The notes below the pieces were generated by a model. It made no database searches and had not been told where the DNA came from. It saw only the letters and a list, made by a program, of their open reading frames with translations. From NCBI GenBank assembly GCA_043228905.1, contig JBHGNT010000059.1, positions 62,001-126,000 of the forward strand: DNA of 64,000 nucleotides. Reading direction: 5' to 3'. The DNA is from Azolla caroliniana. Its lineage: Eukaryota > Plantae > Polypodiophyta. The first letter of the stretch is position 1. Every line of letters begins with the position of its first letter. The position numbers and the translations under genes were made by a program. Of this stretch, positions 1-64,000 are shown one piece after another.

Positions 1-237
1 TCTCTTGTTGTCTCTGTAGCGCCTCTCATCGATGGATCCCTCACGACGTCCGCTGCGCCTCTCCTCGTCGACATCCTCCTCCCTACGTCGATCGCGTCTC
101 TCCTCGTCAATGTCTCCCTCTCTTCGTCGATCGCGCCTCTCCTCTTCGCGATCCCGTCCTACAGATCTAGCATTGGCCGCGCCGCAGGCGGCTAGCATGA
201 TAACCGCCATGAGGAATATGATAGTGAGCTTCGCCAT
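1..237 (-). CDS. 5' part of 2S-albumin-like R/E/D-rich secreted protein, cut by window edge
   Basis: Identical to 2201-2437; ATG at 237. Confidence 0.85.
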   Translation of the reverse strand, partial: MAKLTIIFLMAVIMLAACGAANARSVGRDREEERRDRRREGDIDEERRDRRREEDVDEERRSGRREGSIDERRYRDNKR

Positions 238-1360
238 TGCTTGTGTTCGGAACTACCCCGGTTCTCTCTCCGCCTATTTGAGTGTGTCATGGTTGATCCA
301 CCCTTATATACACAAGGCCATGCATGTCTAGTACATGCATGTCCCTTCCCACGTCCATTCCTATAGACGTTAATGGCATGATCCATACTTGGGCCACGGA
401 AGAGACCATTCACTTTTCACCACCCCCCTTTACGTGTCCAGGATCCTCCTGCTTCGACCTACCATATCACTAGCCCTATACTCACCTCCATCACACCAGG
501 AGTGGGATTATGCACTTGGGCATTTCAAATCTACTAACCTATGGACGCTTCGTCCATATTGCAACGTAGACAGTATGTAACCTCATGATAGCCACCTACA
601 CATGTGATGCCATTGAGGTTGTAGAGTGCGTATGGGCCTCGTAAAACGAGGATAAGGTGGTGAGAAAAGGTTTTTAGGGTGTTGGTTCTCTCCACGAAAA
701 CGTGCTCGGTGGTTGTGGCCACGAGGGAGTTTAGAATCCATTGCGACCAACATACGGACGACGACACGCGTTTTCATTGTGATTACAAGATCCGTCGTCG
801 TTGTGGACGCTGCAACCACCGGAGGAATATGAAGGTGGCACCATTCAAGGACAACATTTCTAGGTGAAACATGCGTGGGTTGGTTGGTTCACACGATGAT
901 GAAAATGGTAGATAGACATGGGAATGTCATGTGGAATCATGTTTGTAGTAGGAGTTACGATCAGCCACTACTATTGCGCACATCATGGTACGGCGAGACA
1001 CGGCATTGTACGAGGGTGGCTTCAATACAACATTGTGATGGCATCGACGTTTGACGAGTTTCGCGTTGCTCGCGAGAGAGATAGCGATAGATGGATAGCG
1101 ATAGATATAGGTAGGGTGGGAGTGGGTAGTGTGCGTGTGGGCACGTTACCTAATCATGCGTGCGTGGAGTTTCATTTTGCTTGTGCAATGAGCGAGCGAG
1201 GGCACGCGACCTGATCGTGCGTGCGTGCGTGCGTGTTGTGCGCGAGCGTGGGAGAAATATGATTGAGAGGGTTATGAGAACGTCAAGACACCACACAGAG
1301 CACACCATTTACATTTACGATGTTCAGAAAGTGTATAGTTGAAAAAGTTATGTACGTTCT

Positions 1361-2437
1361 TTAAAAGTGGCGAATACAAGCGCGTGGGCGAAGATCACAT
1401 TGTTGGAGAAGGCGAGAGGTTGCCACGCTTAGAAGTTGTTCCTCCTCACCGGCCTTGAAACGACGACGTTGTTCCTCATCTTGTCGTCCGGTCATGCGAT
1501 AACGGCGCTCGTCCTCCTCGCGCTCGCTACTGTCTCTCTCTCGCTCGGCATCCTCTTCCCATTGACGACGTTCCCTTGACACTTGGCTATGGCGGTGACC
1601 ATCATTGCGTGCCTCTTCTCCGCTAATGTATAAGGCCTCGCGGAGGCGGTTGCAACGCTCTTCTACGGGGATTTGTTCCACGTTCCTGCAGCATCTTTCG
1701 GAGGGCCTTGCATATCGGCTGATTTCATCCCAAGAGGTGCGACGGCTTCGTCCACGTTCTTCCTTCTCATTACGTTCTTGTAGGTGGCGGACCTGCCCAT
1801 CGACGAAGTTTTGGCACTCTTGCCTCAACTCTCGGTCTCGTGGCTCATCGCGATCGCGGCCGCGACGATCCCGTTCCTCTTCGGACTCTCTCTTGTTGTC
1901 TCTGCGACGTCCTTCATCGAGGGATCCTTCACGACGTCGGTCGCGCCTCTCCTGCTCGACATCCTCCTCCCTACGTCGATCGCGCCTCTCGTCGCGTGAC
2001 TCATCACGATCGCGACCGCGACGATCCCGTTCCTCTTCGGACTCTCTCTTGTTGTCTCCGTAGCGCCCCTCCTCGATGGACCCCTCGCGACGTCCCCCGC
2101 GCCTCTCCTCATCGAAATCCTCCTCCCTGCGTCGATCGCGCCTCTCCTCACGTGGCTCATCGCGATCGTGACTGCGACGATCCCGGTCCTCATCCGACCC
2201 TCTCTTGTTGTCTCTGTAGCGCCTCTCATCGATGGATCCCTCACGACGTCCGCTGCGCCTCTCCTCGTCGACATCCTCCTCCCTACGTCGATCGCGTCTC
2301 TCCTCGTCAATGTCTCCCTCTCTTCGTCGATCGCGCCTCTCCTCTTCGCGATCCCGTCCTACAGATCTAGCATTGGCCGCGCCGCAGGCGGCTAGCATGA
2401 TAACCGCCATGAGGAATATGATAGTGAGCTTCGCCAT
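1361..2437 (-). CDS. Secreted Arg/Glu/Asp-rich 2S-albumin/prolamin-superfamily-like protein (putative storage protein), 358 aa
   Basis: Hydrophobic signal peptide MAKLTIIFLMAVIMLAACGAANA; R/E/D repeats at aa 32-200; Cys at 208, 249, 250, 262, 347, 354 (CC-x11-C, and LLQQCDLRPRAC resembling the 2S albumin C-terminal LPxxCNLxPxxC); TATA/RY/ABRE upstream. The ORF is secure; the product call is inference. Confidence 0.85.
   Translation of the reverse strand: MAKLTIIFLMAVIMLAACGAANARSVGRDREEERRDRRREGDIDEERRDRRREEDVDEERRSGRREGSIDERRYRDNKRGSDEDRDRRSHDRDEPREERRDRRREEDFDEERRGGRREGSIEEGRYGDNKRESEEERDRRGRDRDESRDERRDRRREEDVEQERRDRRREGSLDEGRRRDNKRESEEERDRRGRDRDEPRDRELRQECQNFVDGQVRHLQERNEKEERGRSRRTSWDEISRYARPSERCCRNVEQIPVEERCNRLREALYISGEEARNDGHRHSQVSRERRQWEEDAERERDSSEREEDERRYRMTGRQDEEQRRRFKAGEEEQLLSVATSRLLQQCDLRPRACIRHF
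1838..2344 (-). repeat. Intragenic hierarchical repeat: 39-bp (13-aa) subunits grouped into three 156-bp (52-aa) units
   Basis: TCTCTTGTTG recurs at 1889, 2045, 2201 (156-bp period); EERRDRRREEDVD-type 13-mers. Present in every copy. Confidence 0.9.
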
Positions 2438-2500
2438 TGCTTGTGTTCGGAACTACCCCGGTTCTCTCTCCGCCTATTTGAGTGTGTCATGGTTGATCCA

Positions 2501-2638
2501 CCCTTATATACACAAGGCCATGCATGTCTAGTACATGCATGTCCCTTCCCACGTCCATTCCTATAGACGTTAATGGCATGATCCATACTTGGGCCACGGA
2601 AGAGACCATTCACTTTTCACCACCCCCCTTTACGTGTC
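2501..2638 (-). promoter_or_regulatory. Maturation-type promoter: TATA, two RY elements, two ABRE/ACGT boxes (repeated in each unit, e.g. 301-438)
   Basis: TATATAAGGG on the minus strand at 2501-2510; CATGCATG at 2519-2526 and 2534-2541; ACGTGG (minus) at 2549-2554; TACGTGTC at 2631-2638. Confidence 0.8.
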
Positions 2639-3560
2639 CAGGATCCTCCTGCTTCGACCTACCATATCACTAGCCCTATACTCACCTCCATCACACCAGG
2701 AGTGGGATTATGCACTTGGGCATTTCAAATCTACTAACCTATGGACGCTTCGTCCATATTGCAACGTAGACAGTATGTAACCTCATGATAGCCACCTACA
2801 CATGTGATGCCATTGAGGTTGTAGAGTGCGTATGGGCCTCGTAAAACGAGGATAAGGTGGTGAGAAAAGGTTTTTAGGGTGTTGGTTCTCTCCACGAAAA
2901 CGTGCTCGGTGGTTGTGGCCACGAGGGAGTTTAGAATCCATTGCGACCAACATACGGACGACGACACGCGTTTTCATTGTGATTACAAGATCCGTCGTCG
3001 TTGTGGACGCTGCAACCACCGGAGGAATATGAAGGTGGCACCATTCAAGGACAACATTTCTAGGTGAAACATGCGTGGGTTGGTTGGTTCACACGATGAT
3101 GAAAATGGTAGATAGACATGGGAATGTCATGTGGAATCATGTTTGTAGTAGGAGTTACGATCAGCCACTACTATTGCGCACATCATGGTACGGCGAGACA
3201 CGGCATTGTACGAGGGTGGCTTCAATACAACATTGTGATGGCATCGACGTTTGACGAGTTTCGCGTTGCTCGCGAGAGAGATAGCGATAGATGGATAGCG
3301 ATAGATATAGGTAGGGTGGGAGTGGGTAGTGTGCGTGTGGGCACGTTACCTAATCATGCGTGCGTGGAGTTTCATTTTGCTTGTGCAATGAGCGAGCGAG
3401 GGCACGCGACCTGATCGTGCGTGCGTGCGTGCGTGTTGTGCGCGAGCGTGGGAGAAATATGATTGAGAGGGTTATGAGAACGTCAAGACACCACACAGAG
3501 CACACCATTTACATTTACGATGTTCAGAAAGTGTATAGTTGAAAAAGTTATGTACGTTCT

Positions 3561-4637
3561 TTAAAAGTGGCGAATACAAGCGCGTGGGCGAAGATCACAT
3601 TGTTGGAGAAGGCGAGAGGTTGCCACGCTTAGAAGTTGTTCCTCCTCACCGGCCTTGAAACGACGACGTTGTTCCTCATCTTGTCGTCCGGTCATGCGAT
3701 AACGGCGCTCGTCCTCCTCGCGCTCGCTACTGTCTCTCTCTCGCTCGGCATCCTCTTCCCATTGACGACGTTCCCTTGACACTTGGCTATGGCGGTGACC
3801 ATCATTGCGTGCCTCTTCTCCGCTAATGTATAAGGCCTCGCGGAGGCGGTTGCAACGCTCTTCTACGGGGATTTGTTCCACGTTCCTGCAGCATCTTTCG
3901 GAGGGCCTTGCATATCGGCTGATTTCATCCCAAGAGGTGCGACGGCTTCGTCCACGTTCTTCCTTCTCATTACGTTCTTGTAGGTGGCGGACCTGCCCAT
4001 CGACGAAGTTTTGGCACTCTTGCCTCAACTCTCGGTCTCGTGGCTCATCGCGATCGCGGCCGCGACGATCCCGTTCCTCTTCGGACTCTCTCTTGTTGTC
4101 TCTGCGACGTCCTTCATCGAGGGATCCTTCACGACGTCGGTCGCGCCTCTCCTGCTCGACATCCTCCTCCCTACGTCGATCGCGCCTCTCGTCGCGTGAC
4201 TCATCACGATCGCGACCGCGACGATCCCGTTCCTCTTCGGACTCTCTCTTGTTGTCTCCGTAGCGCCCCTCCTCGATGGACCCCTCGCGACGTCCCCCGC
4301 GCCTCTCCTCATCGAAATCCTCCTCCCTGCGTCGATCGCGCCTCTCCTCACGTGGCTCATCGCGATCGTGACTGCGACGATCCCGGTCCTCATCCGACCC
4401 TCTCTTGTTGTCTCTGTAGCGCCTCTCATCGATGGATCCCTCACGACGTCCGCTGCGCCTCTCCTCGTCGACATCCTCCTCCCTACGTCGATCGCGTCTC
4501 TCCTCGTCAATGTCTCCCTCTCTTCGTCGATCGCGCCTCTCCTCTTCGCGATCCCGTCCTACAGATCTAGCATTGGCCGCGCCGCAGGCGGCTAGCATGA
4601 TAACCGCCATGAGGAATATGATAGTGAGCTTCGCCAT
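3561..4637 (-). CDS. 2S-albumin-like R/E/D-rich secreted protein, 358 aa
   Basis: Protein identical to the 1361-2437 copy. Confidence 0.85.
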   Translation of the reverse strand: MAKLTIIFLMAVIMLAACGAANARSVGRDREEERRDRRREGDIDEERRDRRREEDVDEERRSGRREGSIDERRYRDNKRGSDEDRDRRSHDRDEPREERRDRRREEDFDEERRGGRREGSIEEGRYGDNKRESEEERDRRGRDRDESRDERRDRRREEDVEQERRDRRREGSLDEGRRRDNKRESEEERDRRGRDRDEPRDRELRQECQNFVDGQVRHLQERNEKEERGRSRRTSWDEISRYARPSERCCRNVEQIPVEERCNRLREALYISGEEARNDGHRHSQVSRERRQWEEDAERERDSSEREEDERRYRMTGRQDEEQRRRFKAGEEEQLLSVATSRLLQQCDLRPRACIRHF

Positions 4638-5760
4638 TGCTTGTGTTCGGAACTACCCCGGTTCTCTCTCCGCCTATTTGAGTGTGTCATGGTTGATCCA
4701 CCCTTATATACACAAGGCCATGCATGTCTAGTACATGCATGTCCCTTCCCACGTCCATTCCTATAGACGTTAATGGCATGATCCATACTTGGGCCACGGA
4801 AGAGACCATTCACTTTTCACCACCCCCCTTTACGTGTCCAGGATCCTCCTGCTTCGACCTACCATATCACTAGCCCTATACTCACCTCCATCACACCAGG
4901 AGTGGGATTATGCACTTGGGCATTTCAAATCTACTAACCTATGGACGCTTCGTCCATATTGCAACGTAGACAGTATGTAACCTCATGATAGCCACCTACA
5001 CATGTGATGCCATTGAGGTTGTAGAGTGCGTATGGGCCTCGTAAAACGAGGATAAGGTGGTGAGAAAAGGTTTTTAGGGTGTTGGTTCTCTCCACGAAAA
5101 CGTGCTCGGTGGTTGTGGCCACGAGGGAGTTTAGAATCCATTGCGACCAACATACGGACGACGACACGCGTTTTCATTGTGATTACAAGATCCGTCGTCG
5201 TTGTGGACGCTGCAACCACCGGAGGAATATGAAGGTGGCACCATTCAAGGACAACATTTCTAGGTGAAACATGCGTGGGTTGGTTGGTTCACACGATGAT
5301 GAAAATGGTAGATAGACATGGGAATGTCATGTGGAATCATGTTTGTAGTAGGAGTTACGATCAGCCACTACTATTGCGCACATCATGGTACGGCGAGACA
5401 CGGCATTGTACGAGGGTGGCTTCAATACAACATTGTGATGGCATCGACGTTTGACGAGTTTCGCGTTGCTCGCGAGAGAGATAGCGATAGATGGATAGCG
5501 ATAGATATAGGTAGGGTGGGAGTGGGTAGTGTGCGTGTGGGCACGTTACCTAATCATGCGTGCGTGGAGTTTCATTTTGCTTGTGCAATGAGCGAGCGAG
5601 GGCACGCGACCTGATCGTGCGTGCGTGCGTGCGTGTTGTGCGCGAGCGTGGGAGAAATATGATTGAGAGGGTTATGAGAACGTCGAGACACCACACAGAG
5701 CACACCATTTACATTTACGATGTTCAGAAAGTGTATAGTTGAAAAAGTTATGTACGTTCT

Positions 5761-6837
5761 TTAAAAGTGGCGAATACAAGCGCGTGGGCGAAGATCACAT
5801 TGTTGGAGAAGGCGAGAGGTTGCCACGCTTAGAAGTTGTTCCTCCTCACCGGCCTTGAAACGACGACGTTGTTCCTCATCTTGTCGTCCGGTCATGCGAT
5901 AACGGCGCTCGTCCTCCTCGCGCTCGCTACTGTCTCTCTCTCGCTCGGCATCCTCTTCCCATTGACGACGTTCCCTTGACACTTGGCTATGGCGGTGACC
6001 ATCATTGCGTGCCTCTTCTCCGCTAATGTATAAGGCCTCGCGGAGGCGGTTGCAACGCTCTTCTACGGGGATTTGTTCCACGTTCCTGCAGCATCTTTCG
6101 GAGGGCCTTGCATATCGGCTGATTTCATCCCAAGAGGTGCGACGGCTTCGTCCACGTTCTTCCTTCTCATTACGTTCTTGTAGGTGGCGGACCTGCCCAT
6201 CGACGAAGTTTTGGCACTCTTGCCTCAACTCTCGGTCTCGTGGCTCATCGCGATCGCGGCCGCGACGATCCCGTTCCTCTTCGGACTCTCTCTTGTTGTC
6301 TCTGCGACGTCCTTCATCGAGGGATCCTTCACGACGTCGGTCGCGCCTCTCCTGCTCGACATCCTCCTCCCTACGTCGATCGCGCCTCTCGTCGCGTGAC
6401 TCATCACGATCGCGACCGCGACGATCCCGTTCCTCTTCGGACTCTCTCTTGTTGTCTCCGTAGCGCCCCTCCTCGATGGACCCCTCGCGACGTCCCCCGC
6501 GCCTCTCCTCATCGAAATCCTCCTCCCTGCGTCGATCGCGCCTCTCCTCACGTGGCTCATCGCGATCGTGACTGCGACGATCCCGGTCCTCATCCGACCC
6601 TCTCTTGTTGTCTCTGTAGCGCCTCTCATCGATGGATCCCTCACGACGTCCGCTGCGCCTCTCCTCGTCGACATCCTCCTCCCTACGTCGATCGCGTCTC
6701 TCCTCGTCAATGTCTCCCTCTCTTCGTCGATCGCGCCTCTCCTCTTCGCGATCCCGTCCTACAGATCTAGCATTGGCCGCGCCGCAGGCGGCTAGCATGA
6801 TAACCGCCATGAGGAATATGATAGTGAGCTTCGCCAT
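5761..6837 (-). CDS. 2S-albumin-like R/E/D-rich secreted protein, 358 aa
   Basis: Protein identical to the 1361-2437 copy. Confidence 0.85.
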   Translation of the reverse strand: MAKLTIIFLMAVIMLAACGAANARSVGRDREEERRDRRREGDIDEERRDRRREEDVDEERRSGRREGSIDERRYRDNKRGSDEDRDRRSHDRDEPREERRDRRREEDFDEERRGGRREGSIEEGRYGDNKRESEEERDRRGRDRDESRDERRDRRREEDVEQERRDRRREGSLDEGRRRDNKRESEEERDRRGRDRDEPRDRELRQECQNFVDGQVRHLQERNEKEERGRSRRTSWDEISRYARPSERCCRNVEQIPVEERCNRLREALYISGEEARNDGHRHSQVSRERRQWEEDAERERDSSEREEDERRYRMTGRQDEEQRRRFKAGEEEQLLSVATSRLLQQCDLRPRACIRHF

Positions 6838-7960
6838 TGCTTGTGTTCGGAACTACCCCGGTTCTCTCTCCGCCTATTTGAGTGTGTCATGGTTGATCCA
6901 CCCTTATATACACAAGGCCATGCATGTCTAGTACATGCATGTCCCTTCCCACGTCCATTCCTATAGACGTTAATGGCATGATCCATACTTGGGCCACGGA
7001 AGAGACCATTCACTTTTCACCACCCCCCTTTACGTGTCCAGGATCCTCCTGCTTCGACCTACCATATCACTAGCCCTATACTCACCTCCATCACACCAGG
7101 AGTGGGATTATGCACTTGGGCATTTCAAATCTACTAACCTATGGACGCTTCGTCCATATTGCAACGTAGACAGTATGTAACCTCATGATAGCCACCTACA
7201 CATGTGATGCCATTGAGGTTGTAGAGTGCGTATGGGCCTCGTAAAACGAGGATAAGGTGGTGAGAAAAGGTTTTTAGGGTGTTGGTTCTCTCCACGAAAA
7301 CGTGCTCGGTGGTTGTGGCCACGAGGGAGTTTAGAATCCATTGCGACCAACATACGGACGACGACACGCGTTTTCATTGTGATTACAAGATCCCTCGTCG
7401 TTGTGGACGCTGCAACCACCGGAGGAATATGAAGGTGGCACCATTCAAGGACAACATTTCTAGGTGAAACATGCGTGGGTTGGTTGGTTCACACGATGAT
7501 GAAAATGGTAGATAGACATGGGAATGTCATGTGGAATCATGTTTGTAGTAGGAGTTACGATCAGCCACTACTATTGCGCACATCATGGTACGGCGAGACA
7601 CGGCATTGTATGAGGGTGGCTTCAATACAACATTGTGATGGCATCGACGTTTGACGAGTTTTGCGTTGCTCGTGAGAGAGATAGCGATAGATGGATAGCG
7701 ATAGATATAGGTAGGGTGGGAGTGGGTAGTGTGCGTGTGGGCACGTTACCTAATCATGCGTGCGTGGAGTTTCATTTTGCTTGTGCAATGAGCGAGCGAG
7801 GGCACGCGACCTGATCGTGCGTGCGTGCGTGCGTGTTGTGCGCGAGCGTGGGAGAAATATGATTGAGAGGGTTATGAGAACGTCAAGACACCACACAGAG
7901 CACACCATTTACATTTACGATGTTCAGAAAGTGTATAGTTGAAAAAGTTATGTACGTTCT

Positions 7961-8527
7961 TTAAAAGTGGCGAATACAAGCGCGTGGGCGAAGATCACAT
8001 TGTTGGAGAAGGCGAGAGGTTGCCACGCTTAGAAGTTGTTCCTCCTCACCGGCCTTGAAACGACGACGTTGTTCCTCATCTTGTCGTCCGGTCATGCGAT
8101 AACGGCGCTCGTCCTCCTCGCGCTCGCTACTGTCTCTCTCTCGCTCGGCATCCTCTTCCCATTGACGACGTTCCCTTGACACTTGGCTATGGCGGTGACC
8201 ATCATTGCGTGCCTCTTCTCCGCTAATGTATAAGGCCTCGCGGAGGCGGTTGCAACGCTCTTCTACGGGGATTTGTTCCACGTTCCTGCAGCATCTTTCG
8301 GAGGGCCTTGCATATCGGCTGATTTCATCCCAAGAGGTGCGACGGCTTCGTCCACGTTCTTCCTTCTCATTACGTTCTTGTAGGTGGCGGACCTGCCCAT
8401 CGACGAAGTTTTGGCACTCTTGCCTCAACTCTCGGTCTCGTGGCTCATCGCGATCGCGGCCGCGACGATCCCGTTCCTCTTCGGACTCTCTCTTGTTGTC
8501 TCTGCGACGTCCTTCATCGAGGGATCC
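7961..8527 (-). pseudogene. 3' half of the array gene copy split by the chromovirus insertion
   Basis: Matches the CDS from GSLDEG to the stop; broken at TSD GATCC 8523-8527. Confidence 0.95.
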
Positions 8528-8981
8528 TGTTACGAGCATGACCATATAATATCCCGTGGTAAGAATTTACCGTAGTAATCTATACACGTGGATAAGTGTG
8601 AGGGTTAAATGAGAGTGTAAAGAAGGGGAGGATTACTTTTATCCTCGGGATTGAGACAACCCATTAGGTCAAGTGTGAACTTGCATGGGGGCCTTGGGTA
8701 TCGCTATAAATAAGAGGCCTAGCTACCCTCATTTGATCATGTTTTGACTACATCGAGACTCTGCTCGTGTGGTGGGTCAACTCTTGTAGCGAGCGCGCCA
8801 GCACCAGGTACGACTCGACGCCACGGCGGTGGTATGGGACGCCGATCGAGGCTCGAGTCCGTCTCGATCCCTTCGCTCGGGGGTGGTCGGGTGGATCGGC
8901 ACCCTTCTTTCTCTTTCTCCTTTCTATCTATCTTTTCATTATCCTTATCTTAAGCTTACATTAGTATCAAGATCTATAATA
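8528..8981 (+). repeat. 5' LTR, outer chromovirus
   Basis: TGTTACGAG...CTATAATA; matches 22112-22565. Confidence 0.96.
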
Positions 8982-9239
8982 TTTGGTATCAAATTTTATG
9001 TACTAATGTTTCTTTGTTTTTCATTTGTCTTTTGATTGATGCTGATCGATCGTTGTGCGGTTGGCCTTGATCCAGACAACGATCAACAAAGAACTTCGGT
9101 AACTCTTTCCAGAATTTTTCTTTCTATTCTCTCTTCTCCCATCTAATCATGTGTTTAGTTTATATGTAATTTTTTTCATTAAGTCAATGATGTTGTAGTG
9201 GTCTTTAATTGATTATCTAAAACGTTTACATATGTGCAC

Positions 9240-9420: not shown

Positions 9421-9423
9421 CAT

Positions 9424-43662: not shown

Positions 43663-43732
43663 AGACGGGCCGGTTTTCTCCGTCCCAACTCTCTGGCGCA
43701 TACCGGAGGATGCGCGGTTAGGTGGGGGCGGA

Positions 43733-54611: not shown

Positions 54612-55643
54612 TGCTTGTGTTCGGAACTACCCCGGTTCTCTCTCCGCCTATTTGAGTGTGTCATGGTTGATCCACCCTTATATACACAAGGCCATGCATG
54701 TCTAGTACATGCATGTCCCTTCCCACGTCCATTCCTATAGACGTTAATGGCATGATCCATACTTGGGCCACGGAAGAGACCATTCACTTTTCACCACCCC
54801 CCTTTACGTGTCCAGGATCCTCCTGCTTCGACCTACCATATCACTAGCCCTATACTCACCTCCATCACACCAGGAGTGGGATTATGCACTTGGGCATTTC
54901 AAATCTACTAACCTATGGACGCTTCGTCCATATTGCAACGTAGACAGTATGTAACCTCATGATAGCCACCTACACATGTGATGCCATTGAGGTTGTAGAG
55001 TGCGTATGGGCCTCGTAAAACGAGGATAAGGTGGTGAGAAAAGGTTTTTAGGGTGTTGGTTCTCTCCACGAAAACGTGCTCGGTGGTTGTGGCCACGAGG
55101 GAGTTTAGAATCCATTGCGACCAACATACGGACGACGACACGCGTTTTCATTGTGATTACAAGATCCGTCGTCGTTGTGGACGCTGCAACCACCGGAGGA
55201 ATATGAAGGTGGCACCATTCAAGGACAACATTTCTAGGTGAAACATGCGTGGGTTGGTTGGTTCACACGATGATGACAATGGTAGATAGACATGGGAATG
55301 TCATGTGGAATCATGTTTGTAGTAGGAGTTACGATCAGCCACTACTATTGCGCACATCATGGTACAGCGAGACACGGCATTGTATGAGGGTGGCTTCAAT
55401 ACAACATTGTGATGGCATCGACGTTTGACGAGTTTCGCGTTGCTCGTGAGAGAGATAGCGATAGATATAGGTAGGGTGGGAGTGGGTAGTGTGCGTGTGG
55501 GCACGTTACCTAATCATGTGTGCGTGGAGTTTCATTTTGCTTGTGCAATGAGCGAGCGAGGGCACGCGACCTGATCGTGCGAGCGTGCGTGCGTGTTGTG
55601 CGCGAGCGTGGGAGAAATATGATTGAGAGGGTTATGAGAACGT

Positions 55644-56515
55644 TGTCGTAGTGTATTTTGTACACTACGTGAAAAACGTATATAGTATTAGATTCAATAA
55701 AAAATGAAGAAATAGAAGAAAATAGCAAAATAAATGGAACATGCATAGGGCAAGATTCGAACCTTGCACCTCCATGTTAATAATGTAATGTCTTACCATT
55801 ACACTAGCATTTCATTAGTGTTAAAGTATAGATGTCCCACATAGAAAGGTAAATTCACGCTAGGATAAACATTAGAAAAACGCATAACAAAAGAAAAAGC
55901 TACACATACACATCTAGCGTGCATGATAAAAAACGCACAAGTTAGAAAAAGCATGATCACTTTAGATAAAGCATATAGTCTATCTATAGGAAAAGCATGA
56001 GCACTATATTTAGCAAATAAAAGCAAGGATTAGAAAAGCATCACATGCACATTTAGTGTGCATGAACATATTAGAAAAAAAGCATGTAGCTATGCTTAGT
56101 CTCTCCCATCACTACATAAGGATGGGGAGCACAATGTAATAGGTGTGTGAAAAATATTTGGGAAATTGGATATATTTCCTAAAACACCAATTAATATAAT
56201 CGTGGGATTCACGAAGTTTTATATAATCTATCTCTTTCAATCTAAATTCATATTCTTACATAATTATTGATTAATGTAATACTTGTGGGATTCACAAGGT
56301 TTGATCTCTTTTCTATTTCTACTCTAAACTATTCTAAACTATATCAATTTATTACTATGATTAGTACAAACTAAAACAACTCTACTTGTGGGATTCACAA
56401 GCTTCTAATAATCTATACATAATTAAAATCACCTCAAATTCTTCCTCTTCCTAGTCCAAAACCCCAGCGGTTCCCACCCAACTCACGCAACGATCCGGAG
56501 CCGAAAGGCACGACA
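55644..56515 (+). repeat. LTR type A (872 bp)
   Basis: Terminal inverted repeat TGTCGT/ACGACA, then CAGT and the PBS. Confidence 0.93.
55742..55813 (-). other. tRNA-derived Pol III A-box/B-box module inside the LTR (in all four full LTRs)
   Basis: Minus-strand TAGTGTAATGG at 55806-55796 and GGTTCGAATC at 55763-55754, 43 nt apart; B box within a GCAAG/CTTGC stem. No convincing acceptor or anticodon stem. Confidence 0.6.
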
Positions 56516-56553
56516 CAGTTGGTGAACCCGACGTGAAGACGGGTGGCAAGGAG

Positions 56554-58575
56554 ATGGAGAATCAACAAGAGGCGATGAACATGATGATGATAATGTTTGA
56601 GCGGATGCAACAAGAACAACGTGCGATGTCGGAGATGAAGGCGGCAGTAGAGCGGCTTCTGCGACGAAACGGGGAATTCAACGGTAAGGGTGTGTCACGC
56701 TACCTACGTGAATATAAGGCGGAGATGATGCAATATCGGATACCGGAAGGATTGCAAGTGATATCCTTTAGTCGGGTGGCCTCGGATGAACTACAAGAGA
56801 GAATCCACAAGATACAACAACAAAACTCGACATGGGAGTCCTTTGAAGAAGCTTTACGGGAGGCATATGACTATGAGAGATGGACGGGACGAGATCGACG
56901 AGAATTCGACGAATGGGTGGCGTCGGAGAAGACTCACCGAAGTGCAACGCAAGCGTTCCTAGAGTTCGAGCATCGTTTTGCTCGACTCTCGGAGCGGAAA
57001 CGACGATTGGTGGGAGAAGATAAAGTCTTAATGTTCGTAAGATCGATCGATCGGAAAGAAAGGATGGACATTGGGATCAAACTCGAAGATGATGACGGTG
57101 CGAACGGCCTTACCGAGGATTGGGCCAAAGTCGAAAGGGTATGCCGAAGACATGATGAAAGGAAGCTGAGAATCTCGTCAACAACGACATGGCCCATGAA
57201 GGATGGTCGATTGAGGAAAAACGATGAAGCCAATATGAAGGCCGAAATACAACATGATGGTACCACGGGAGAAAGAGTGGAACAAGACACCCACTCGTCT
57301 TGTGAAAGAACGATGGCGAAGGATAAGGCCGATAATTCAAGTGTAGAAGGAAATTTCGGGATACAAGTGCCCGAGACATCGGGTCAAAAAGGGGTAAGCA
57401 TAATAGATGTTTGCATAATTGATGCAGATAAAGAGTGTGAAGCGGATGTGATTAAGGAGGTAGCCACAAAAGACGAAATCGAATCGGAGGTGGCTATGGA
57501 CGAATCAATGGCGGATTGCCATATCGAGACTTCCCCACCACTGATTCCAGAGACTCCGGCGGTTGCGATCGAAAGGCAACGTGAGACCGAAGAGACGGAA
57601 GGTGGCGGAGAGAAAACGAATGTCGAAGCCGACGAATACGATGAAGAGATAGCCGAGAAGAATGCTAAGGGTGAAACTACGAAAGAAGGTAATACCGAGG
57701 ATTCATGCCAACAATATCTAGAGACTTCGTCGGTTGTGTCCGAGAACCAACGTGAGACCGGAGAGACGGGAGATGACGGCGAGGAAGGTAAAGTCGGAAG
57801 TCGGTTCGGATGGAAAATGATCCATCCGAAATTCCAATCTAAAAGAAAGTGCGACAATGCGGAGGTCGGGTCTACGACGGGAGAAGCGCGTAATACAGAG
57901 CATGCTCTACGGCGAATAAAGAAACGCGTGTTATTGCGAATAAAGAAGCACGCGCTACGGCGAGAAAAGAAGCATGCATTACAACCACACGAGGACCGAA
58001 CAACGAGCACATATCGGAGGACCTACGTGGCGAACAACGGAAAGAAGTGCCGAAAGTCGAACCGAACAAGGCAGGTGAAAACGAAGAAAAGAAAGCAAAT
58101 CCGGACGAAAAGAAAAGAAAAGAAACCGACCCGAAAGAGCACTGAATCGGTAAAAACCGATCAACCGAGTCCGGATCGACCGAATACAAATCGGAAAGGA
58201 AGCCGAACTAAACGAAAGACGATCCGACGAGACCGAATCGGAAGTAAGCTAATCCGACTAAACCGAAAATCCGAAAAGAAGTCGAGATTGATGAAGAAAA
58301 GAAAGAGGGCAAGAAAAGATACTACCGCGGATGACAAGGACCAAGCGGGCCATGCAAAAAGCGAACGAAGACTATGGTGGATCGGATGTCGACAATGGTT
58401 CGGGTGGAAAGAATGGATGTGCTCCAAATGGAGAGACAAAGTCAACATAACAAGAGAAGTCGAGGGTACTACGAGCCGGCAACGAAACCAATCGGGTAGA
58501 GACCGGACGGAGGAGACTAACAAACACCAACAACTTCGGCACATACCGGAGAATGTGCGGGTTTGGAGGGGGTGA
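56554..58575 (+). CDS. gag: Gag-like protein with long acidic then basic C-terminal extension
   Basis: GEFNGKGVSRYL..AEM and VLMFVRSID..GLTEDWAKVERVC align with GRFDGRDATKYL..AEM and VLLFVKSVD..GLTTDWAAVKKVC of the 38057 Gag. Confidence 0.85.
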   Translation: MENQQEAMNMMMIMFERMQQEQRAMSEMKAAVERLLRRNGEFNGKGVSRYLREYKAEMMQYRIPEGLQVISFSRVASDELQERIHKIQQQNSTWESFEEALREAYDYERWTGRDRREFDEWVASEKTHRSATQAFLEFEHRFARLSERKRRLVGEDKVLMFVRSIDRKERMDIGIKLEDDDGANGLTEDWAKVERVCRRHDERKLRISSTTTWPMKDGRLRKNDEANMKAEIQHDGTTGERVEQDTHSSCERTMAKDKADNSSVEGNFGIQVPETSGQKGVSIIDVCIIDADKECEADVIKEVATKDEIESEVAMDESMADCHIETSPPLIPETPAVAIERQRETEETEGGGEKTNVEADEYDEEIAEKNAKGETTKEGNTEDSCQQYLETSSVVSENQRETGETGDDGEEGKVGSRFGWKMIHPKFQSKRKCDNAEVGSTTGEARNTEHALRRIKKRVLLRIKKHALRREKKHALQPHEDRTTSTYRRTYVANNGKKCRKSNRTRQVKTKKRKQIRTKRKEKKPTRKSTESVKTDQPSPDRPNTNRKGSRTKRKTIRRDRIGSKLIRLNRKSEKKSRLMKKRKRARKDTTADDKDQAGHAKSERRLWWIGCRQWFGWKEWMCSKWRDKVNITREVEGTTSRQRNQSGRDRTEETNKHQQLRHIPENVRVWRG

Positions 58576-58576
58576 G

Positions 58577-59446
58577 TGTCGTAGTGTATTTTGTACACTA
58601 CGTGAAAAACGTATATAGTATTAGATTCAATAAAAAATGAAGAAATAGAAGAAAATAGCAAAATAAATGGAACATGCATAGGGCAAGATTCGAACCTTGC
58701 ACCTCCATGTTAATAATGTAATGTCTTACCATTACACTAGCATTTCATTAGTGTTAAAGTATAGATGTCCCACATAGAAAGGTAAATTCACGCTAGGATA
58801 AACATTAGAAAAACGCATAACAAAAGAAAAAGCTACACATACACATCTAGCGTGCATGATAAAAAACGCACAAGTTAGAAAAAGCATGATCACTTTAGAT
58901 AAAGCATATAGTCTATCTATAGGAAAAGCATGAGCACTATATTTAGCAAATAAAAGCAAGGATTAGAAAAGCATCACATGCACATTTAGTGTGCATGAAC
59001 ATATTAGAAAAAAAGCATGTAGCTATGCTTAGTCTCTCCCATCACTACATAAGGATGGGGAGCACAATGTAATAGGTGTGTGAAAAATATTTGGGAAATT
59101 GGATATATTTCCTAAAACACCAATTAATATAATCGTGGGATTCACGAAGTTTTATATAATCTATCTCTTTCAATCTAAATTCATATTCTTACATAATTAT
59201 TGATTAATGTAATACTTGTGGGATTCACAAGGTTTGATCTCTTTTCTATTTCTACTCTAAACTATTCTAAACTATATCAATTTATTACTATGATTAGTAC
59301 AAACTAAAACAACTCTACTTGTGGGATTCACAAGCTTCTAATAATCTATACATAATTAAAATCACCTCAAATTCTTCCTCTTCCTAGTCCAAAACCCCAG
59401 CGGTTCCCACCCAACTCACGCAACGATCCGGAGCCGAAAGGCACGA
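58577..59446 (+). repeat. LTR type A lacking the terminal CA
   Basis: Appears identical to 55644-56513. Confidence 0.92.
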
Positions 59447-59756
59447 GAAGCACAATGTAATTGTGTGTGAAAAATATTTGGAAACTGGATATGTTTCTAA
59501 AAAACACCAATTAATAAACTATACTCGTGGGATTCACGAGGATTCTATATCATTCTCTTTCAACCGAAGTTTATATTCTTATATTCATATTGATTAATCT
59601 AATACAATACACTCGTGGGATTCACGAGTTTGCTATAACTCTTTCTTACAACATATTTATATTCTTATTAGCCTTAAAACTCTCCTCTTCCTAGTCCAAA
59701 ACCCCAGCGGTTCCCACCCGACTCACGCAAACGATCCGGAGCCGAAAGGCACGACA
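59447..59756 (+). repeat. 3' part of a type-B LTR
   Basis: Matches 61920-62229; followed by CAGT and the PBS. Confidence 0.9.
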
Positions 59757-59794
59757 CAGTTGGTGAACCCGACGTGAAGACGGGTGGCAAGGAG

Positions 59795-61441
59795 ATGGAG
59801 AATCAACAAGAGGCGATGAACATGATGATGATAATGTTTGAGCGGATGCAACAAGAACAACGTGCGATGTCGGAGATGAAGGCGGCAGTAGAGCGGCTTC
59901 TGCGACGAAACGGGGAATTCAACGGTAAGGGTGTGTCACGCTACCTACGTGAATATAAGGCGGAGATGATGCAATATCGGATACCGGAAGGATTGCAAGT
60001 GATATCCTTTAGTCGGGTGGCCTCGGACGAACTACAAGAGAGAATCCACAAGATACAACAACAAAACTCGACATGGGAGTCCTTTGAAGAAGCTTTACGG
60101 GAGGCATATGACTATGAGAGATGGACGGGACGAGATCGACGAGAATTCGACGAATGGGTGGCGTCGGAGAAGACTCACCGAAGTGCAACGCAAGCGTTCC
60201 TAGAGTTCGAGCATCGTTTTGCTCGACTCTCGGAGCGGGAACGAAGATTGGTGGGAGAAGATAAAGTCTTAATGTTCGTAAGATCGATCGATCGGAAAGA
60301 AAGGATGGACATTGGGATCGAACTCGAAGATGATGACGGTGCGAACGGCCTTACCGAGGATTGGGCTAAAGTCGAAAGGGTATGCCAAAGACATGATGAA
60401 AGGAAGCTGAGAATCTCGTCAACAACGACATGGCCCATGAAGGATGGTCGATTGAGGAAAAACGATGAAGCCAATATGAAGGCCGAAATACAACATGATG
60501 GTACCACGGGAGAAAGAGTGGAACAAGACACCCACTCGTCTTGTGAAAGAACGATGGCGAAGGATAAGGCCGATAATTCAAGTGTAGAAGGAAATTTCGG
60601 GATACAAGTGCCCGAGACATCGGGTCAAAAAGGGGTAAGCATAATAGATGTTTGCATAATTGATGCAGATAAAGAGTGTGAAGCGGATGTGATTAAGGAG
60701 GTAGCCACAAAAGACGAAATCGAATCGGAGGTGGCTATGGACGAATCAATGGCGGATTGCCATATCGAGACTTCCCCACCACTGATTCCAGAGACTCCAG
60801 CGGTTGCGTTCGAAAGGCAACGTGAGACCGAAGAGACGGAAGGTGGCGGAGAGAAAACAAAGGTCGAAGTCGATGCATACGACGGAGAGATAGCCGAGAA
60901 TATGGCTATGGGTGAAACAATGGAGGATGATAATACCGAGGATTCCTACCCACTAATTCTAGAGACTTCGGCGGTTGTATTCGAGAACCAACGTGAGACC
61001 GGAGAGACAGGAGGTGGCGGCAAGAAAGGTAAAGTCGGAAGCCGGTTCGGATGGAAGGTGATCCGGACAGGATTCCGATCCGAAAGAAAGCCAACCGAAA
61101 CCGAAAGCGATAGATCGAAACCGGGCCGGAAGGAGACCGACTCAATCGAAACCGAACAACCGATTCCGATTCGGCCGAATACGAATCCGATCAGAAGCCG
61201 ATCAAACCGAAAGTCGATCGGACGAGAGCGATCCGGAAAAAAGTCAAGGTTGATGAAGACAAGAAAGAGGCCAGTAAAAGACACTACCACGAATGACAAG
61301 GGCCAAGAATATGACGAGAGAGAACAAAGAATATGGTGGATCGGATGGCGACAATGGTTCGGGTGGAAAGAATGGGTCTACTCAAAATGGAGAGACAAAG
61401 TTGACATAGCGGGACAAACAGAGGATGAAGGAGGAGACTAA
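59795..61441 (+). CDS. gag: Gag-like protein, second variant with shorter C-terminus
   Basis: Nearly identical to the 56554 ORF for ~355 aa, then diverges. Confidence 0.85.
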   Translation: MENQQEAMNMMMIMFERMQQEQRAMSEMKAAVERLLRRNGEFNGKGVSRYLREYKAEMMQYRIPEGLQVISFSRVASDELQERIHKIQQQNSTWESFEEALREAYDYERWTGRDRREFDEWVASEKTHRSATQAFLEFEHRFARLSERERRLVGEDKVLMFVRSIDRKERMDIGIELEDDDGANGLTEDWAKVERVCQRHDERKLRISSTTTWPMKDGRLRKNDEANMKAEIQHDGTTGERVEQDTHSSCERTMAKDKADNSSVEGNFGIQVPETSGQKGVSIIDVCIIDADKECEADVIKEVATKDEIESEVAMDESMADCHIETSPPLIPETPAVAFERQRETEETEGGGEKTKVEVDAYDGEIAENMAMGETMEDDNTEDSYPLILETSAVVFENQRETGETGGGGKKGKVGSRFGWKVIRTGFRSERKPTETESDRSKPGRKETDSIETEQPIPIRPNTNPIRSRSNRKSIGRERSGKKSRLMKTRKRPVKDTTTNDKGQEYDEREQRIWWIGWRQWFGWKEWVYSKWRDKVDIAGQTEDEGGD

Positions 61442-61497
61442 CAAACACCAACAACTTCGGCACATACCGGAGGATGTGCGGGTTTGGAGGGGGTGAG

Positions 61498-62229
61498 TGT
61501 CGTAGTGTATTTTGTACACTACGTGAAAAACGTATATAGTATTAGATTCAATAAAAAAAAATGAAGAAATAGAAGAAAATAGCAAAATAAATGGAACATG
61601 CATAGGGCAAGATTCGAACCTTGCACCTCCATGTTAATAATGTAATGTCTTACCATTACACTAGCATTTCATTAGTGTTAAAGCATAGATGTCCCACATA
61701 GAAAGATAAATTCACGCTAGGATAAACATTAGAAAAACGCATAACAAAAGAAAAAGCTACACATACACATCTAGCGTGCATGATAAAAAACGCACAAGTT
61801 AGAAAAAAGCATGATCACTTTAGATAAAGCATATAGTCTATCTATAGGAAAAGCATGGGGTCTATAGTTAGAGAAAAAGCATGGATTACTAAGACTTCCT
61901 CATCACTACATAAGGATGGGAAGCACAATGTAATTGTGTGTGAAAAATATTTGGAAACTGGATATGTTTCTAAAAAACACCAATTAATAAACTATACTCG
62001 TGGGATTCACGAGGATTCTATATCATTCTCTTTCAACCGAAGTTTATATTCTTATATTCATATTGATTAATCTAATACAATACACTCGTGGGATTCACGA
62101 GTTTGCTATAACTCTTTCTTACAACATATTTATATTCTTATTAGCCTTAAAACTCTCCTCTTCCTAGTCCAAAACCCCAGCGGTTCCCACCCGACTCACG
62201 CAAACGATCCGGAGCCGAAAGGCACGACA
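61498..62229 (+). repeat. LTR type B (732 bp)
   Basis: TGTCGT...ACGACA after the PPT. Confidence 0.92.
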
Positions 62230-62233
62230 CAAG

Positions 62234-62990
62234 TGTCGTAGTGTATTTTGTACACTACGTGAAAAACGTATATAGTATTAGATTCAATAAAAAATGAAGA
62301 AATAGAAGAAAATAGCAAAATAAATGGAACATGCATAGGGCAAGATTCGAACCTTGCACCTCCATGTTAATAATATAATGTCTTACCATTACACTAGCAT
62401 TTCATTAGTGTTAAAGCATAGATGTCCCACATAGAAAGGTAAATTCACGCTAGGATAAACATTAGAAAAACGCATAACAAAAGAAAAAGCTACACATACA
62501 CATCTAGCGTGCATGATAAAAAACGCACAAGTTAGAAAAAGCACGATCACTTTAGATAAAGCATATAGTCTATCTATAGGAAAAGCATGGGGTCTATAGT
62601 TAGAGAAAAAGCATGGATTACTAAGACTTCCTCATCACTACATAAGGATGGGGAGCACAATGTAATTGTGTGTGAGAAATATTTGGAAATTGGATATATT
62701 TCCGAAAACACCAACCGATTAATATAATCGTGGGATTCACGAAAATAATATAATCTATACTTGTGGGATTCACAAGTTTCTTATATCTTTCTTTCAATCT
62801 AAATACATATTCTTATCTAAATATTGATTAATCGAATACAATACACTCGTGGGATTCACGAGATTCTTATCTTATAACTCTTTATACCTATTGTTTACTA
62901 GCCTTATTTGTATTTTTCTTCCTCCTAGTCCAAAACCTCGGCGGTTCCCACCCGACTCACGCAAACGATCCGGAGCCGAAAGGCACGACA
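62234..62990 (+). repeat. LTR type C (757 bp), followed by CAGT and PBS fused to host DNA
   Basis: TGTCGT...ACGACA; PBS at 62995-63011. Confidence 0.92.
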
Positions 62991-63007
62991 CAGTTGGTGA
63001 ACCCGAC

Positions 63008-64000
63008 GTGATTACAAGATCCGTCGTCGTTGTGGACGCTGCAACCACCGGAGGAATATGAAGGTGGCACCATTCAAGGACAACATTTCTAGGTGAAACA
63101 TGCGTGGGTTGGTTGGTTCACACGATGATGAAAATGGTAGATAGACATGGTAATGTCATGTGGAATCATGTTTGTAGTAGGAGTTACGATCAGCCACTAC
63201 TATTGCGCACATCATGGTACGGCGAGACACGGCATTGTATGAGGGTGGCTTCAATACAACATTGTGATGGCATCGACGTTTGACGAGTTTCGCGTTGCTC
63301 GTGAGAGAGATAGCGATAGATGGATAGCGATAGATATAGGTAGGGTGGGAGTGGGTAGTGTGCGTGTGGGCACGTTACCTAATCATGTGTGCGTGGAGTT
63401 TCATTTTGCTTGTGCAATGAGCGAGCGAGGGCACGCGACCTGATCGTGCGTGCGTGCGTGCGTGTTGTGCGCGAGCGTGGGAGAAATATGATTGAGAGGG
63501 TTATGAGAACGTCAAGACACCACACAGAGCACACCATTTACATTTACGATGTTCAGAAAGTGTATAGTTGAAAAAGTTATGTACGTTCTTTAAAAGTGGC
63601 GAATACAAGCGCGTGGGCGAAGATCACATTGTTGGAGAAGGCGAGAGGTTGCCACGCTTAGAAGTTGTTCCTCCTCACCGGCCTTGAAACGACGACGTTG
63701 TTCCTCATCTTGTCGTCCGGTCATGCGATAACGGCGCTCGTCCTCCTCGCGCTCGCTACTGTCTCTCTCTCGCTCGGCATCCTCTTCCCATTGACGACGT
63801 TCCCTTGACACTTGGCTATGGCGGTGACCATCATTGCGTGCCTCTTCTCCGCTAATGTATAAGGCCTCGCGGAGGCGGTTGCAACGCTCTTCTACGGGGA
63901 TTTGTTCCACGTTCCTGCAGCATCTTTCGGAGGGCCTTGCATATCGGCTGATTTCATCCCAAGAGGTGCGACGGCTTCGTCCACGTTCTTCCTTCTCATT
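63008..64000. repeat. 2.2-kb tandem gene array, segment 4
   Basis: Resumes at GTGATTACAAG, equivalent to position 779. Confidence 0.98.
63590..64000 (-). CDS. 3' part of the 2S-albumin-like protein, cut by window edge
   Basis: Identical to the C-terminal 136 codons plus stop. Confidence 0.85.
   Translation of the reverse strand, partial: NEKEERGRSRRTSWDEISRYARPSERCCRNVEQIPVEERCNRLREALYISGEEARNDGHRHSQVSRERRQWEEDAERERDSSEREEDERRYRMTGRQDEEQRRRFKAGEEEQLLSVATSRLLQQCDLRPRACIRHF

What the first reader, a model, noticed from the sequence alone, without database searches (positions are those of the whole stretch)
1..64000. rDNA-like tandem amplification (at least 17 copies) of a 2S-albumin-like storage protein gene
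Seen: a 2.2-kb unit of gene plus promoter, repeated head to tail across the window and running off both ends; intact copies differ by 0-2 aa. Known: 2S albumin genes of seed plants are intronless and usually sit in small, diverged clusters. Inference: a dosage-amplified storage-protein locus under concerted evolution or very recent expansion. The resident retrotransposons suggest a seed-free plant, so this may be an undescribed spore storage-protein system.
Basis: partly seen in the sequence, partly recalled or inferred. Interest (0 to 1): 0.85.

Follow-up and report, generated by a model that had tools for sequence, protein, structure and literature searches.

The report
Fern storage-protein genes in giant arrays
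The assembly of a water fern (Azolla) genome holds about 600 near-identical, head-to-tail copies of two small genes for arginine-rich relatives of seed 2S albumins, kept uniform the way ribosomal DNA is, and these likely serve to mass-produce a nitrogen reserve for its spores.

Summary
The array is real and much larger than the window. The window holds 14 whole, 1 transposon-split and 2 edge copies of a 2,200-bp unit (99.0-100% identical). Three LTR-retrotransposon blocks interrupt it. The plastid rbcL names the genome as an Azolla. Exact patterns find 173 copies of this gene family and 440 of a second arrayed family, against two places for a low-copy paralogue. Short-read contigs from other runs collapse the same units at high depth, so this is not an assembly artefact. 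The protein has a signal-like N-terminus, an Arg/Glu/Asp repeat and a six-cysteine 2S-albumin-like domain shared with Adiantum proteins. Between lineages dN/dS is 0.12-0.15. The spacer diverges except for an RY/TATA promoter. Neighbouring copies share variants, so this is an old array under ongoing homogenisation, not only a recent burst. Expression is not shown; spore storage and a benefit from gene dosage are inferred. Fern-spore 2S albumins are already known (matteuccin), so the storage system is not new. I found no report of rDNA-scale arrays of them, and the scan's earlier notes hold nothing on it.

The parts
1..8527 (-). Array block 1: 2,200-bp units, gene on the - strand; runs off the left end of the window
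1361..2437 (-). Reference gene copy, 358 aa, one uninterrupted ORF. Hydrophobic N-terminus (aa 1-~24, predicted signal peptide), Arg/Glu/Asp repeat of about 52-aa period (aa 25-~198), six-Cys prolamin-type domain (C208, C249-C250, C262, C347, C354)
2504..2510 (-). TATA box, 73 nt upstream of the ATG
   Evidence: present in 8 of 8 aligned promoters
2519..2541 (.). Two RY boxes (CATGCATG at 2519-2526 and 2534-2541), likely ABI3/LEC2-type B3 binding sites
   Evidence: 4 RY hexamer hits in 200 bp against a mean of 0.2 in 5,000 Markov resamples, p=0.0008
2631..2639 (.). ABRE-like ACGT box about 199 nt upstream of the ATG
   Evidence: motif name recalled
2438..3560 (-). 1,123-bp spacer: 3' end of one gene and promoter of the next. 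No Rfam match
3561..4637 (-). intact gene copy
5761..6837 (-). intact gene copy
7961..8527 (-). 3' half of the gene copy split by the nested retrotransposons
8528..22565 (+). Ty3 chromodomain LTR retrotransposon (target duplication GATCC, LTRs 0 of 454 different) with a second element of the same family nested at 9424-16440 (duplication TCCAT, LTRs 0 of 456 different). ORFs at 11566-15999 and 17692-22125
22566..37210 (-). Array block 2: 5' half of the split gene, then intact genes at 24204-25280, 26404-27480, 28604-29680, 30804-31880, 33039-34115, 35235-36311
37211..44534 (+). Second Ty3-type LTR retrotransposon inserted in a spacer (target duplication GCGT, 802-bp LTRs, 3 differences)
44535..55643 (-). 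Array block 3: intact genes at 44763-45839, 46963-48039, 49163-50239, 51349-52425, 53535-54611
55644..63007 (+). Rearranged LTR-element block with gag-like ORFs and no target duplication. The unit resumes at about position 1639 instead of 2144
63008..64000 (-). Array block 4: spacer and 3' part of a gene that continues beyond the window

Best explanation
This window is part of a real head-to-tail array of near-identical genes for an arginine-rich, 2S-albumin-like protein in an Azolla fern, one of two such arrays totalling about 600 copies in the assembly, and it likely works as a gene-dosage device that fills maturing spores with a nitrogen reserve. Shown: the array, its copy numbers in the assembly, purifying selection on the protein between lineages, a conserved RY/TATA promoter and local sharing of variants. 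Inferred: each unit is its own transcription unit, switched on by ABI3/LEC2-type factors during sporocarp maturation. The precursor would enter the secretory pathway and be stored in vacuoles, with the charged repeats acting as the nitrogen payload and three disulfides holding the core. Unequal crossing-over or gene conversion would keep copies uniform. Selection would act on which variant spreads through the array rather than on single copies.
For: Copy number: 173 exact matches for family 1 and 440 for family 2, controls 0. In DNA run X1 the unit collapses to one 2,061-bp contig of depth 585, against 2.6-3.5 for single-copy scraps (order of magnitude only). One short-read assembly holds both families at coverage 249 and 657, a ratio of 2.6, against 2.5 from the pattern counts. 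Intactness: 143 of 168 start-anchored family-1 copies are intact, 23 broken and 2 run off; 22 of 26 family-2 copies examined are intact. Family: PF00234 scores 22.9 bits against a cut-off of 21.7. The best PDB profile hit is the 2S albumin Mo-CBP4 (E 0.0096) and the best fold match is 2S albumin 5dom_A (Z 6.6, rmsd 3.6, 86 aligned). Adiantum homologues share the same six cysteines. Selection: dN/dS is 0.12-0.15 against three other assemblies' units; the spacer is 67-71% identical overall but 81-89% in the last ~220 bp. Promoter: RY hexamer and TATA in 8 of 8 promoters across all three families. Payload: 28.7% Arg and 22.1% nitrogen by mass, against 17.3% for rbcL. Homogenisation: adjacent units differ by 3.4 changes and units 10 or more apart by 5.8 (33 units, Mantel rho 0.21, p 0.001). 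Literature: 2S albumins occur in fern spores (PMC4973428 passage); ABI3/LEC2-type genes are expressed in mature fern sporangia (PMC5379062 passages); Azolla sporocarps are resting stages with nutrient reserves (PMC8386757 passage).
Against: No transcript or protein evidence was obtained. Within the C59 array, single-base variants in the gene are 13 non-synonymous to 4 synonymous, about the neutral ratio, and one 2-bp frameshift has spread to 5 units, so single copies are barely under selection. Only 6 of the 8 canonical cysteines are present. Foldseek gave no match with E<=0.001, Z 6.6 is in the range the tool calls common for helical folds, and model pLDDT is only 66. The Pfam score for the whole protein (19.9) is under the cut-off. 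The 11 small family-1 contigs may overlap one another, so 173 and 440 are not exact copy numbers. Relative coverage of the two families differs among assemblies (1:2.6 in one, about 1:6-8 in another), which suggests loose control of dosage. Chromodomain retrotransposons have inserted repeatedly, which hints at heterochromatin.
Confidence: 0.66

Rival explanations
1. The protein is a real spore storage protein, but the hundreds of copies are a satellite-like by-product of unequal crossing-over. Most copies would be silent and copy number would drift without benefit.
For: Neutral-looking within-array variants and a spreading frameshift. Family coverage ratios vary between assemblies. Repeated chromodomain retrotransposon insertions and a decayed, transposon-riddled margin on C12. 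Adiantum has at least four small homologues on four different large contigs.
Against: Two separate families (dS about 1.05 apart) are both arrayed. Variants fixed between lineages are strongly depleted of amino-acid changes relative to within-array variants (9N:18S against 13N:4S, p=0.012; C-terminal part only, 5N:0S, p=0.010). 85% of family-1 copies are intact. The low-copy paralogue is not arrayed, and the 78 cupin matches show no comparable array.
Confidence: 0.2
2. The protein is mainly a defence or structural protein of the sporocarp or leaf (antifungal, enzyme-inhibiting or wall-associated), as some prolamin-superfamily members are, and storage is secondary.
For: Top PDB hits include an antifungal chitin-binding 2S albumin and amylase or trypsin inhibitors. 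PMC4366206 (passages) calls the family multifunctional.
Against: More than half of the protein is a low-complexity Arg/Glu/Asp repeat whose length varies freely between families and lineages. The promoter is of maturation type. Defence arrays are usually diversified rather than homogenised (recalled).
Confidence: 0.08
3. The protein provisions the cyanobacterial symbiont's resting cells in the chamber next to the megaspore, rather than the fern embryo.
For: Predicted secretion signal. The Arg/Asp/Glu make-up resembles cyanophycin (recalled). Akinetes rest beside the megaspore (PMC11314209 passages).
Against: No localisation data. The same paper says the akinetes carry their own cyanophycin reserves. 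Homologues exist in Adiantum, which has no such symbiont (recalled).
Confidence: 0.04
4. The array is an assembly artefact of one or a few genes.
For: Most copies lie on small unplaced contigs, some with error-like indel clusters.
Against: C59 units carry position-structured variants and unique insertions with target duplications. C59 has a single-copy aldolase flank and a 245-bp exact overlap with the edge of a gap on chromosome C12. Independent runs give high depth.
Confidence: 0.02

Closest known systems
Seed 2S albumins (napin, mabinlin, Moringa Mo-CBP3/4; PF00234)
   Same: Signal-like N-terminus, ORF without introns, CC-containing helical core, Arg/Glu/Gln richness, RY plus ABRE-like promoter (PMC4366206 passages; napin promoter known from a reference title in PMC5379062).
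   Different: Six rather than eight cysteines. In the alignment to Mo-CBP4 the first Cys and the first Cys of CxC are missing; these two pair with each other in napin (recalled). The precursor is 358 aa with long Arg/Glu/Asp insertions instead of about 150 aa. There are hundreds of near-identical copies.
Matteuccin, the 2.2S spore storage protein of ostrich fern (Rodin and Rask 1990)
   Same: A fern 2S-albumin relative stored in spores (title and citing sentence seen in PMC4973428; the paper itself is not held).
   Different: No sequence was available, so orthology is untested. Matteuccin is a small two-chain protein of a homosporous fern (recalled). I found no report of a gene array for it.
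Adiantum PF00234 hypothetical proteins (GOP47_0011525 and relatives)
   Same: Same six-Cys pattern and the PS-x-x-CC and SRLLQQC-x-LRPR motifs; same best fold hit, 5dom_A, Z 6.9, rmsd 3.3, 88 aligned.
   Different: 102-155 aa without the charged repeats. The four A. capillus-veneris clusters have 1-3 members and lie on four different large contigs. Clustering could hide identical copies.
Wheat alpha-gliadin (Gli-2) clusters
   Same: A storage-protein gene family of the prolamin superfamily amplified to high copy number.
   Different: 25-150 copies per haploid genome, most with stop codons, dispersed and diverse (PMC2636828 passages). Here there are about 600 copies, about 85% intact, 0.2% apart, in strict 1.65-2.2-kb units.
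rDNA and animal histone-gene arrays
   Same: Head-to-tail gene-plus-spacer units, uniform within a genome, spacer divergent between lineages, decayed edges, retroelement insertions.
   Different: Encodes a storage-type protein; no Rfam match; insertions fall at scattered unit positions, not at one target site. The histone comparison is recalled.

Membership tests
Prolamin superfamily (PF00234) | Profile match over the curated cut-off | tested here: met
   C-terminal 159 aa 22.9 bits and family 2 23.2 bits, against 21.7; whole protein 19.9 and family 3 17.8 fall under it
Prolamin superfamily (PF00234) | Helical bundle of the 2S albumin/LTP type | tested here: inconclusive
   Top fold hit 5dom_A, Z 6.6, rmsd 3.6, 86 aligned, with many superfamily members in the top 20, but Z<8 and pLDDT 66; Foldseek best E 2.1
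2S albumin | Complete eight-cysteine motif C..C..CC..CxC..C..C | tested here: not met
   Six Cys in the domain; CxC reads E-R-C; same in all three Azolla families and in Adiantum
2S albumin | N-terminal signal peptide | tested here: met
   Hydropathy peak of 3.2 in the first 20 aa and none above 1.0 after aa 30; no dedicated predictor was run
2S albumin | Intronless gene | tested here: met
   One uninterrupted 1,077-bp ORF holds the signal and all cysteines; no transcript to confirm
2S albumin | Proteolytic processing into disulfide-linked small and large chains | not testable with these tools
   Needs protein from spores
2S albumin | Abundant accumulation in storage vacuoles at maturation | not testable with these tools
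   Only promoter motifs point to it; no sporocarp RNA run was identified
rDNA-like concertedly evolving array | Head-to-tail units at high copy number | tested here: met
   terminal overlaps in 5 of 9 collapsed contigs
rDNA-like concertedly evolving array | Units more alike within a genome than between lineages | tested here: met
   0.23% mean difference among 33 C59 units against dS 0.16-0.20 and spacer identity 67-71% to L084-L086
rDNA-like concertedly evolving array | Neighbouring units share variants; edge copies lag | tested here: met
   Mantel p=0.001; edge copies 97-98.7% on C59 and 89-97% on C12
rDNA-like concertedly evolving array | Many copies transcribed | not testable with these tools
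   No raw RNA reads from reproductive tissue were available

The most novel reading that the evidence does not exclude
Azolla solved the problem of stocking a single giant haploid megaspore by building rDNA-scale arrays of storage-protein genes: about 600 templates per haploid genome stand in for the many cells and endoreduplicated nuclei that seeds use, and convert symbiont-fixed nitrogen into an arginine-rich polymer. If so, similar arrays should track heterospory (Salvinia, Marsilea, Selaginella, Isoetes) and be absent from homosporous ferns.
Probability: 0.3. Interest if true: 0.88.

Novelty: new variant of a known kind. Interest (0 to 1): 0.72.

Why it matters
Plant protein-coding genes are rarely found as hundreds of near-identical, mostly intact tandem copies; the largest storage-gene family I could document here (alpha-gliadin, 25-150 copies) is mostly pseudogenes. 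Two such arrays in a small fern genome give a tractable case of rDNA-like concerted evolution acting on a protein. They make testable how the seed maturation programme (RY/ABI3, 2S albumin) was used in a heterosporous spore. They also sit in assembly gaps and unplaced contigs, where annotation would miss or collapse them. For Azolla as a crop, they name a likely main spore reserve protein and a strong candidate spore-maturation promoter.

Tried and rejected
Homologue search with residues 195-358 found nothing among 360 candidates of 196-627 aa. A single-sequence PDB search gave one irrelevant hit. The Atlas gave only a 0.80 prolamin lead. Foldseek found no match at E<=0.001. Rfam found nothing in 1-8600.

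Expression: no RNA holder was listed. RNA run X21 shows spliced aldolase, spliced MYB-CC and low-depth spliced cupin contigs, but no contig on the unit. This is a blank in a run of unknown tissue whose contigs differ from this genome, and it is not counted either way. X22 laid nothing. Run X7 has contigs over the gene at depth 450-1,050 against 92 over the spacer, which looked like a transcript. It showed no spliced joints and only depth 2-4 scraps including intron sequence at a control locus, so it was rejected as expression evidence.

The 752 and 775 'candidates' were rejected as copy numbers; exact patterns were used instead. The + strand and alternative-frame ORFs inside the unit (145 and 149 aa) are shadows of the repeat. 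Placing family 2 on a chromosome failed: the single C6 match is a 96% copy with no gap within about 30 kb, and a flank search hit only dispersed repeats. Whether the 2,161-bp type is the other haplotype of the C59 array or a further block was not resolved. The cupin loci on C14 and C11 first taken for vicilins read as germin-like on inspection (label recalled).

Papers not held: Rodin and Rask 1990 and the Adiantum genome paper.
Full report
OBSERVATION. The commonest spacing between repeated 20-mers is 2,200 bp. Full units match window 1341-3540 at 99.0-100%. Each unit has a 358-aa ORF on the - strand and a 1,123-bp spacer. The window touches 17 copies: 14 whole and intact, one split by an insertion and two cut by the ends. 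Units cover 55% of the window. The rest is three LTR-retrotransposon blocks. The first is a nested pair of chromodomain Ty3 elements with target duplications GATCC and TCCAT and LTR pairs differing at 0 of 454 and 0 of 456 sites. The second is a Ty3-type element with duplication GCGT and 3 of 802 differences. The third is a rearranged block with no duplication. The first two blocks are therefore very young; I have no fern-specific rate to date them.

ORGANISM. The rbcL of a plastid contig in G000 is letter-identical to UniRef100_A0A291R7M9, labelled Azolla caroliniana and shared by 9 records. The genus is Azolla, a heterosporous water fern; the species label is not fixed by this test.

EXTENT. 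The window is C59:62001-126000. On C59 the array runs from 18,906 to the contig end, with copies falling to 97-98.7% identity near that end. The last 245 bp of C59 match exactly the 245 bp left of a 100-N gap on chromosome C12, where decayed remnants at 89-97% lie among transposons. The other end of C59 holds an aldolase gene that is single-copy in the assembly, so C59 is not a redundant haplotig. An exact 28-nt pattern finds 173 copies (control 0). One is on C12 and 172 lie in 12 contigs that I fetched: 40 on C59 and 132 on 11 small contigs. The small contigs carry a 2,161-bp, 345-aa type that lacks one 13-aa repeat and differs by 14 substitutions. Of 168 start-anchored copies, 143 are intact, 23 broken and 2 run off. 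A second family, 261 aa in units of about 1,650 bp and 62-68% identical in the C-terminal domain, is also arrayed. It has 440 exact pattern matches (control 0). Of 26 copies examined 22 are intact, and 23 units are 0.18% apart. A third paralogue occurs at only two places. The total of 613 is a count in the assembly. Overlapping small contigs could inflate it and collapse could deflate it.

INDEPENDENT SUPPORT FOR HIGH COPY NUMBER. Seventeen of 22 listed runs hold at least half of the unit's words; one of them may be the window's own source. In DNA run X1 the unit is one 2,061-bp contig of depth 585, while single-copy scraps have depth 2.6-3.5. In X2 the unit is covered at about 10 and no contig lies on the flank. 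The tool warns that contig depth is not a copy number, so I take this as an order of magnitude. Nine metagenome loci encode relatives. Four are unit-length family-1 contigs (coverage 56-557), four are family 2 (332-657) and one is the low-copy paralogue (1.47). Five of the nine have terminal overlaps, as collapsed tandem units do. L083 and L087 come from one assembly at 249 and 657, a ratio of 2.6, against 440/173 = 2.5. In another assembly the ratio is about 6-8. X2 and X7 carry variants diagnostic of the 2,161-bp type, and X1 carries some of these plus its own.

THE PROTEIN. It has a hydrophobic N-terminus, then about 175 aa of Arg/Glu/Asp repeats (35% R, 23% E, 17% D), then a domain with six cysteines. 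The mature chain is 28.7% Arg and 22.1% nitrogen by mass, against 17.3% for rbcL. The domain passes the PF00234 cut-off (22.9 against 21.7), though the whole protein does not. A profile search reached Adiantum capillus-veneris GOP47_0011525 (E 1.3e-5). That protein led to five more 102-155-aa relatives, four labelled Adiantum and one unlabelled; the Cys pattern is shared, and the four that are complete at the C-terminus keep all six. The profile's best PDB hit is the Moringa 2S albumin Mo-CBP4 (E 0.0096). The alignment shows that the first Cys and the first Cys of CxC are the missing ones; by recall these pair with each other in napin, so one whole disulfide would be lost. Predicted models (pLDDT 66 and 67) both rank 2S albumin 5dom_A first (Z 6.6 and 6.9). 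These scores are modest and Foldseek found nothing significant. The protein is built like a 2S albumin but fails the strict eight-cysteine test.

SELECTION AND HOMOGENISATION. Against units from three other assemblies the C-terminal domain has dS 0.16-0.20 and dN/dS 0.12-0.15. Family 2 gives 0.15, and family 1 against family 2 gives dS 1.05 and dN/dS 0.19. Spacers are 67-71% identical, rising to 81-89% in the last ~220 bp. That stretch holds two RY boxes, a TATA box and an ABRE-like box. An RY hexamer and TATA occur in 8 of 8 promoters of all three families (p=0.0008 for the RY density in the window's promoter). Among 33 C59 units (the four start-anchored edge units and insertion-bearing units were left out) the mean difference is 0.23%. 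Adjacent units are closer than distant ones (3.4 against 5.8 changes; Mantel rho 0.21, p 0.001). Against my reading, within-array variants in the gene are 13 non-synonymous to 4 synonymous, and one frameshift is shared by 5 units. The contrast with fixed differences (9N:18S, p=0.012) suggests that mutations arise freely in single copies while amino-acid changes seldom take over the array. The arrays therefore look old and continually homogenised, not merely recently expanded.

MECHANISM. Shown: the array, its scale, selection on the protein and conservation of the promoter. Inferred: maturation-specific transcription by ABI3/LEC2-type factors. These are expressed in mature Adiantum sporangia, and RY is their B3 binding site (PMC5379062, passages). 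Also inferred: entry to the secretory pathway and vacuolar storage, as for 2S albumins (PMC4973428, passages), and use as a nitrogen reserve in sporocarps, which are resting stages with reserves (PMC8386757, passage). Only one megaspore survives per megasporocarp (PMC11314209, passage). That it is filled from few nuclei is my recall, and it gives a reason why gene dosage could matter. No expression evidence was obtained; the attempts are listed under Tried and rejected.

WHAT IS KNOWN. 2S albumins in fern spores are in print (PMC4973428 passage and its reference to matteuccin; the original is not held). Alpha-gliadins reach 25-150 copies, mostly with stops (PMC2636828, passages). The eight-cysteine motif is described as characteristic of all 2S albumins (PMC4366206, passages). 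Ten library searches (listings only unless named above) gave no report of such arrays in ferns. Term look-ups in two Azolla genome papers found no 'albumin': PMC12400808 also had 0 hits for tandem, satellite, rDNA and prolamin, and PMC6786969 had 0 for storage. PMC9465013 had none for albumin. I read passages only and no supplements. Subscription papers, including an Azolla sporocarp transcriptome that I recall (Brouwer et al. 2014), were not searchable and may list the transcript. The scan's earlier notes held nothing relevant.

VERDICT. A real and previously unremarked genome feature, as far as these searches reach: two rDNA-like arrays of 2S-albumin-like genes in Azolla. It is a new variant of a known kind. 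Interest 0.72; confidence in the storage-plus-dosage explanation 0.66.

Noticed in passing
G000 contigs C109, C113, C117, C138, C162, C238, C304, C315, C316, C364, C426; one copy at C6:14,816,995: Second arrayed family (261 aa, ~1,650-bp unit, 440 exact pattern matches); chromosomal home not found
   Followed up: partly
L096 (C3:10,293,413-10,294,114) and L097 (C432): Low-copy paralogue with His/Glu-rich inserts and an RY/TATA promoter; a candidate for the pre-amplification state
   Followed up: partly
window 8528-22565; C250:19,441-26,459; C12:13.03-13.15 Mb: One chromodomain Ty3 family with non-canonical TG...TA LTR ends inserts repeatedly into and around the array at different unit positions; the C250 element is 99.2% identical to the window's inner element
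   Followed up: partly
L101, L123, L125, L127, L131, L132, L133, L102 (C9, C7, C10, C5, C1, C19, C12): About ten dispersed intron-containing cupin genes that read like 11S/7S storage globulins (label recalled), some Arg/Glu-rich; not arrayed
   Followed up: partly
C8:17.10-18.02 Mb: Cluster of more than 20 single-exon cupin matches (germin-like by recall) in both orientations, with varied scores
   Followed up: no
run X7 on L066:6378-9640: Contigs over the gene are 5-10 times deeper than the spacer contig, unlike X1 and X2; the run is not shown to be RNA; unexplained
   Followed up: partly
C59:40,229-55,637 (five units): The same 2-bp frameshift in five interspersed units, giving a 315-aa product; a broken variant spreading by homogenisation
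   Followed up: yes
window 32,779-32,813, 50,239-54,611 region and 36,311 unit: Small spacer length variants (35-bp duplication, 14-bp deletion shared by three neighbouring units, 4-bp deletion)
   Followed up: partly
C59:9,852-10,887 and C59:129,944-142,064: An ORF pair that reads like an outer-envelope pore protein (recalled; no Pfam hit) beside the aldolase, and a 12-kb non-array insert with 275- and 604-aa ORFs, possibly a DNA transposon
   Followed up: no
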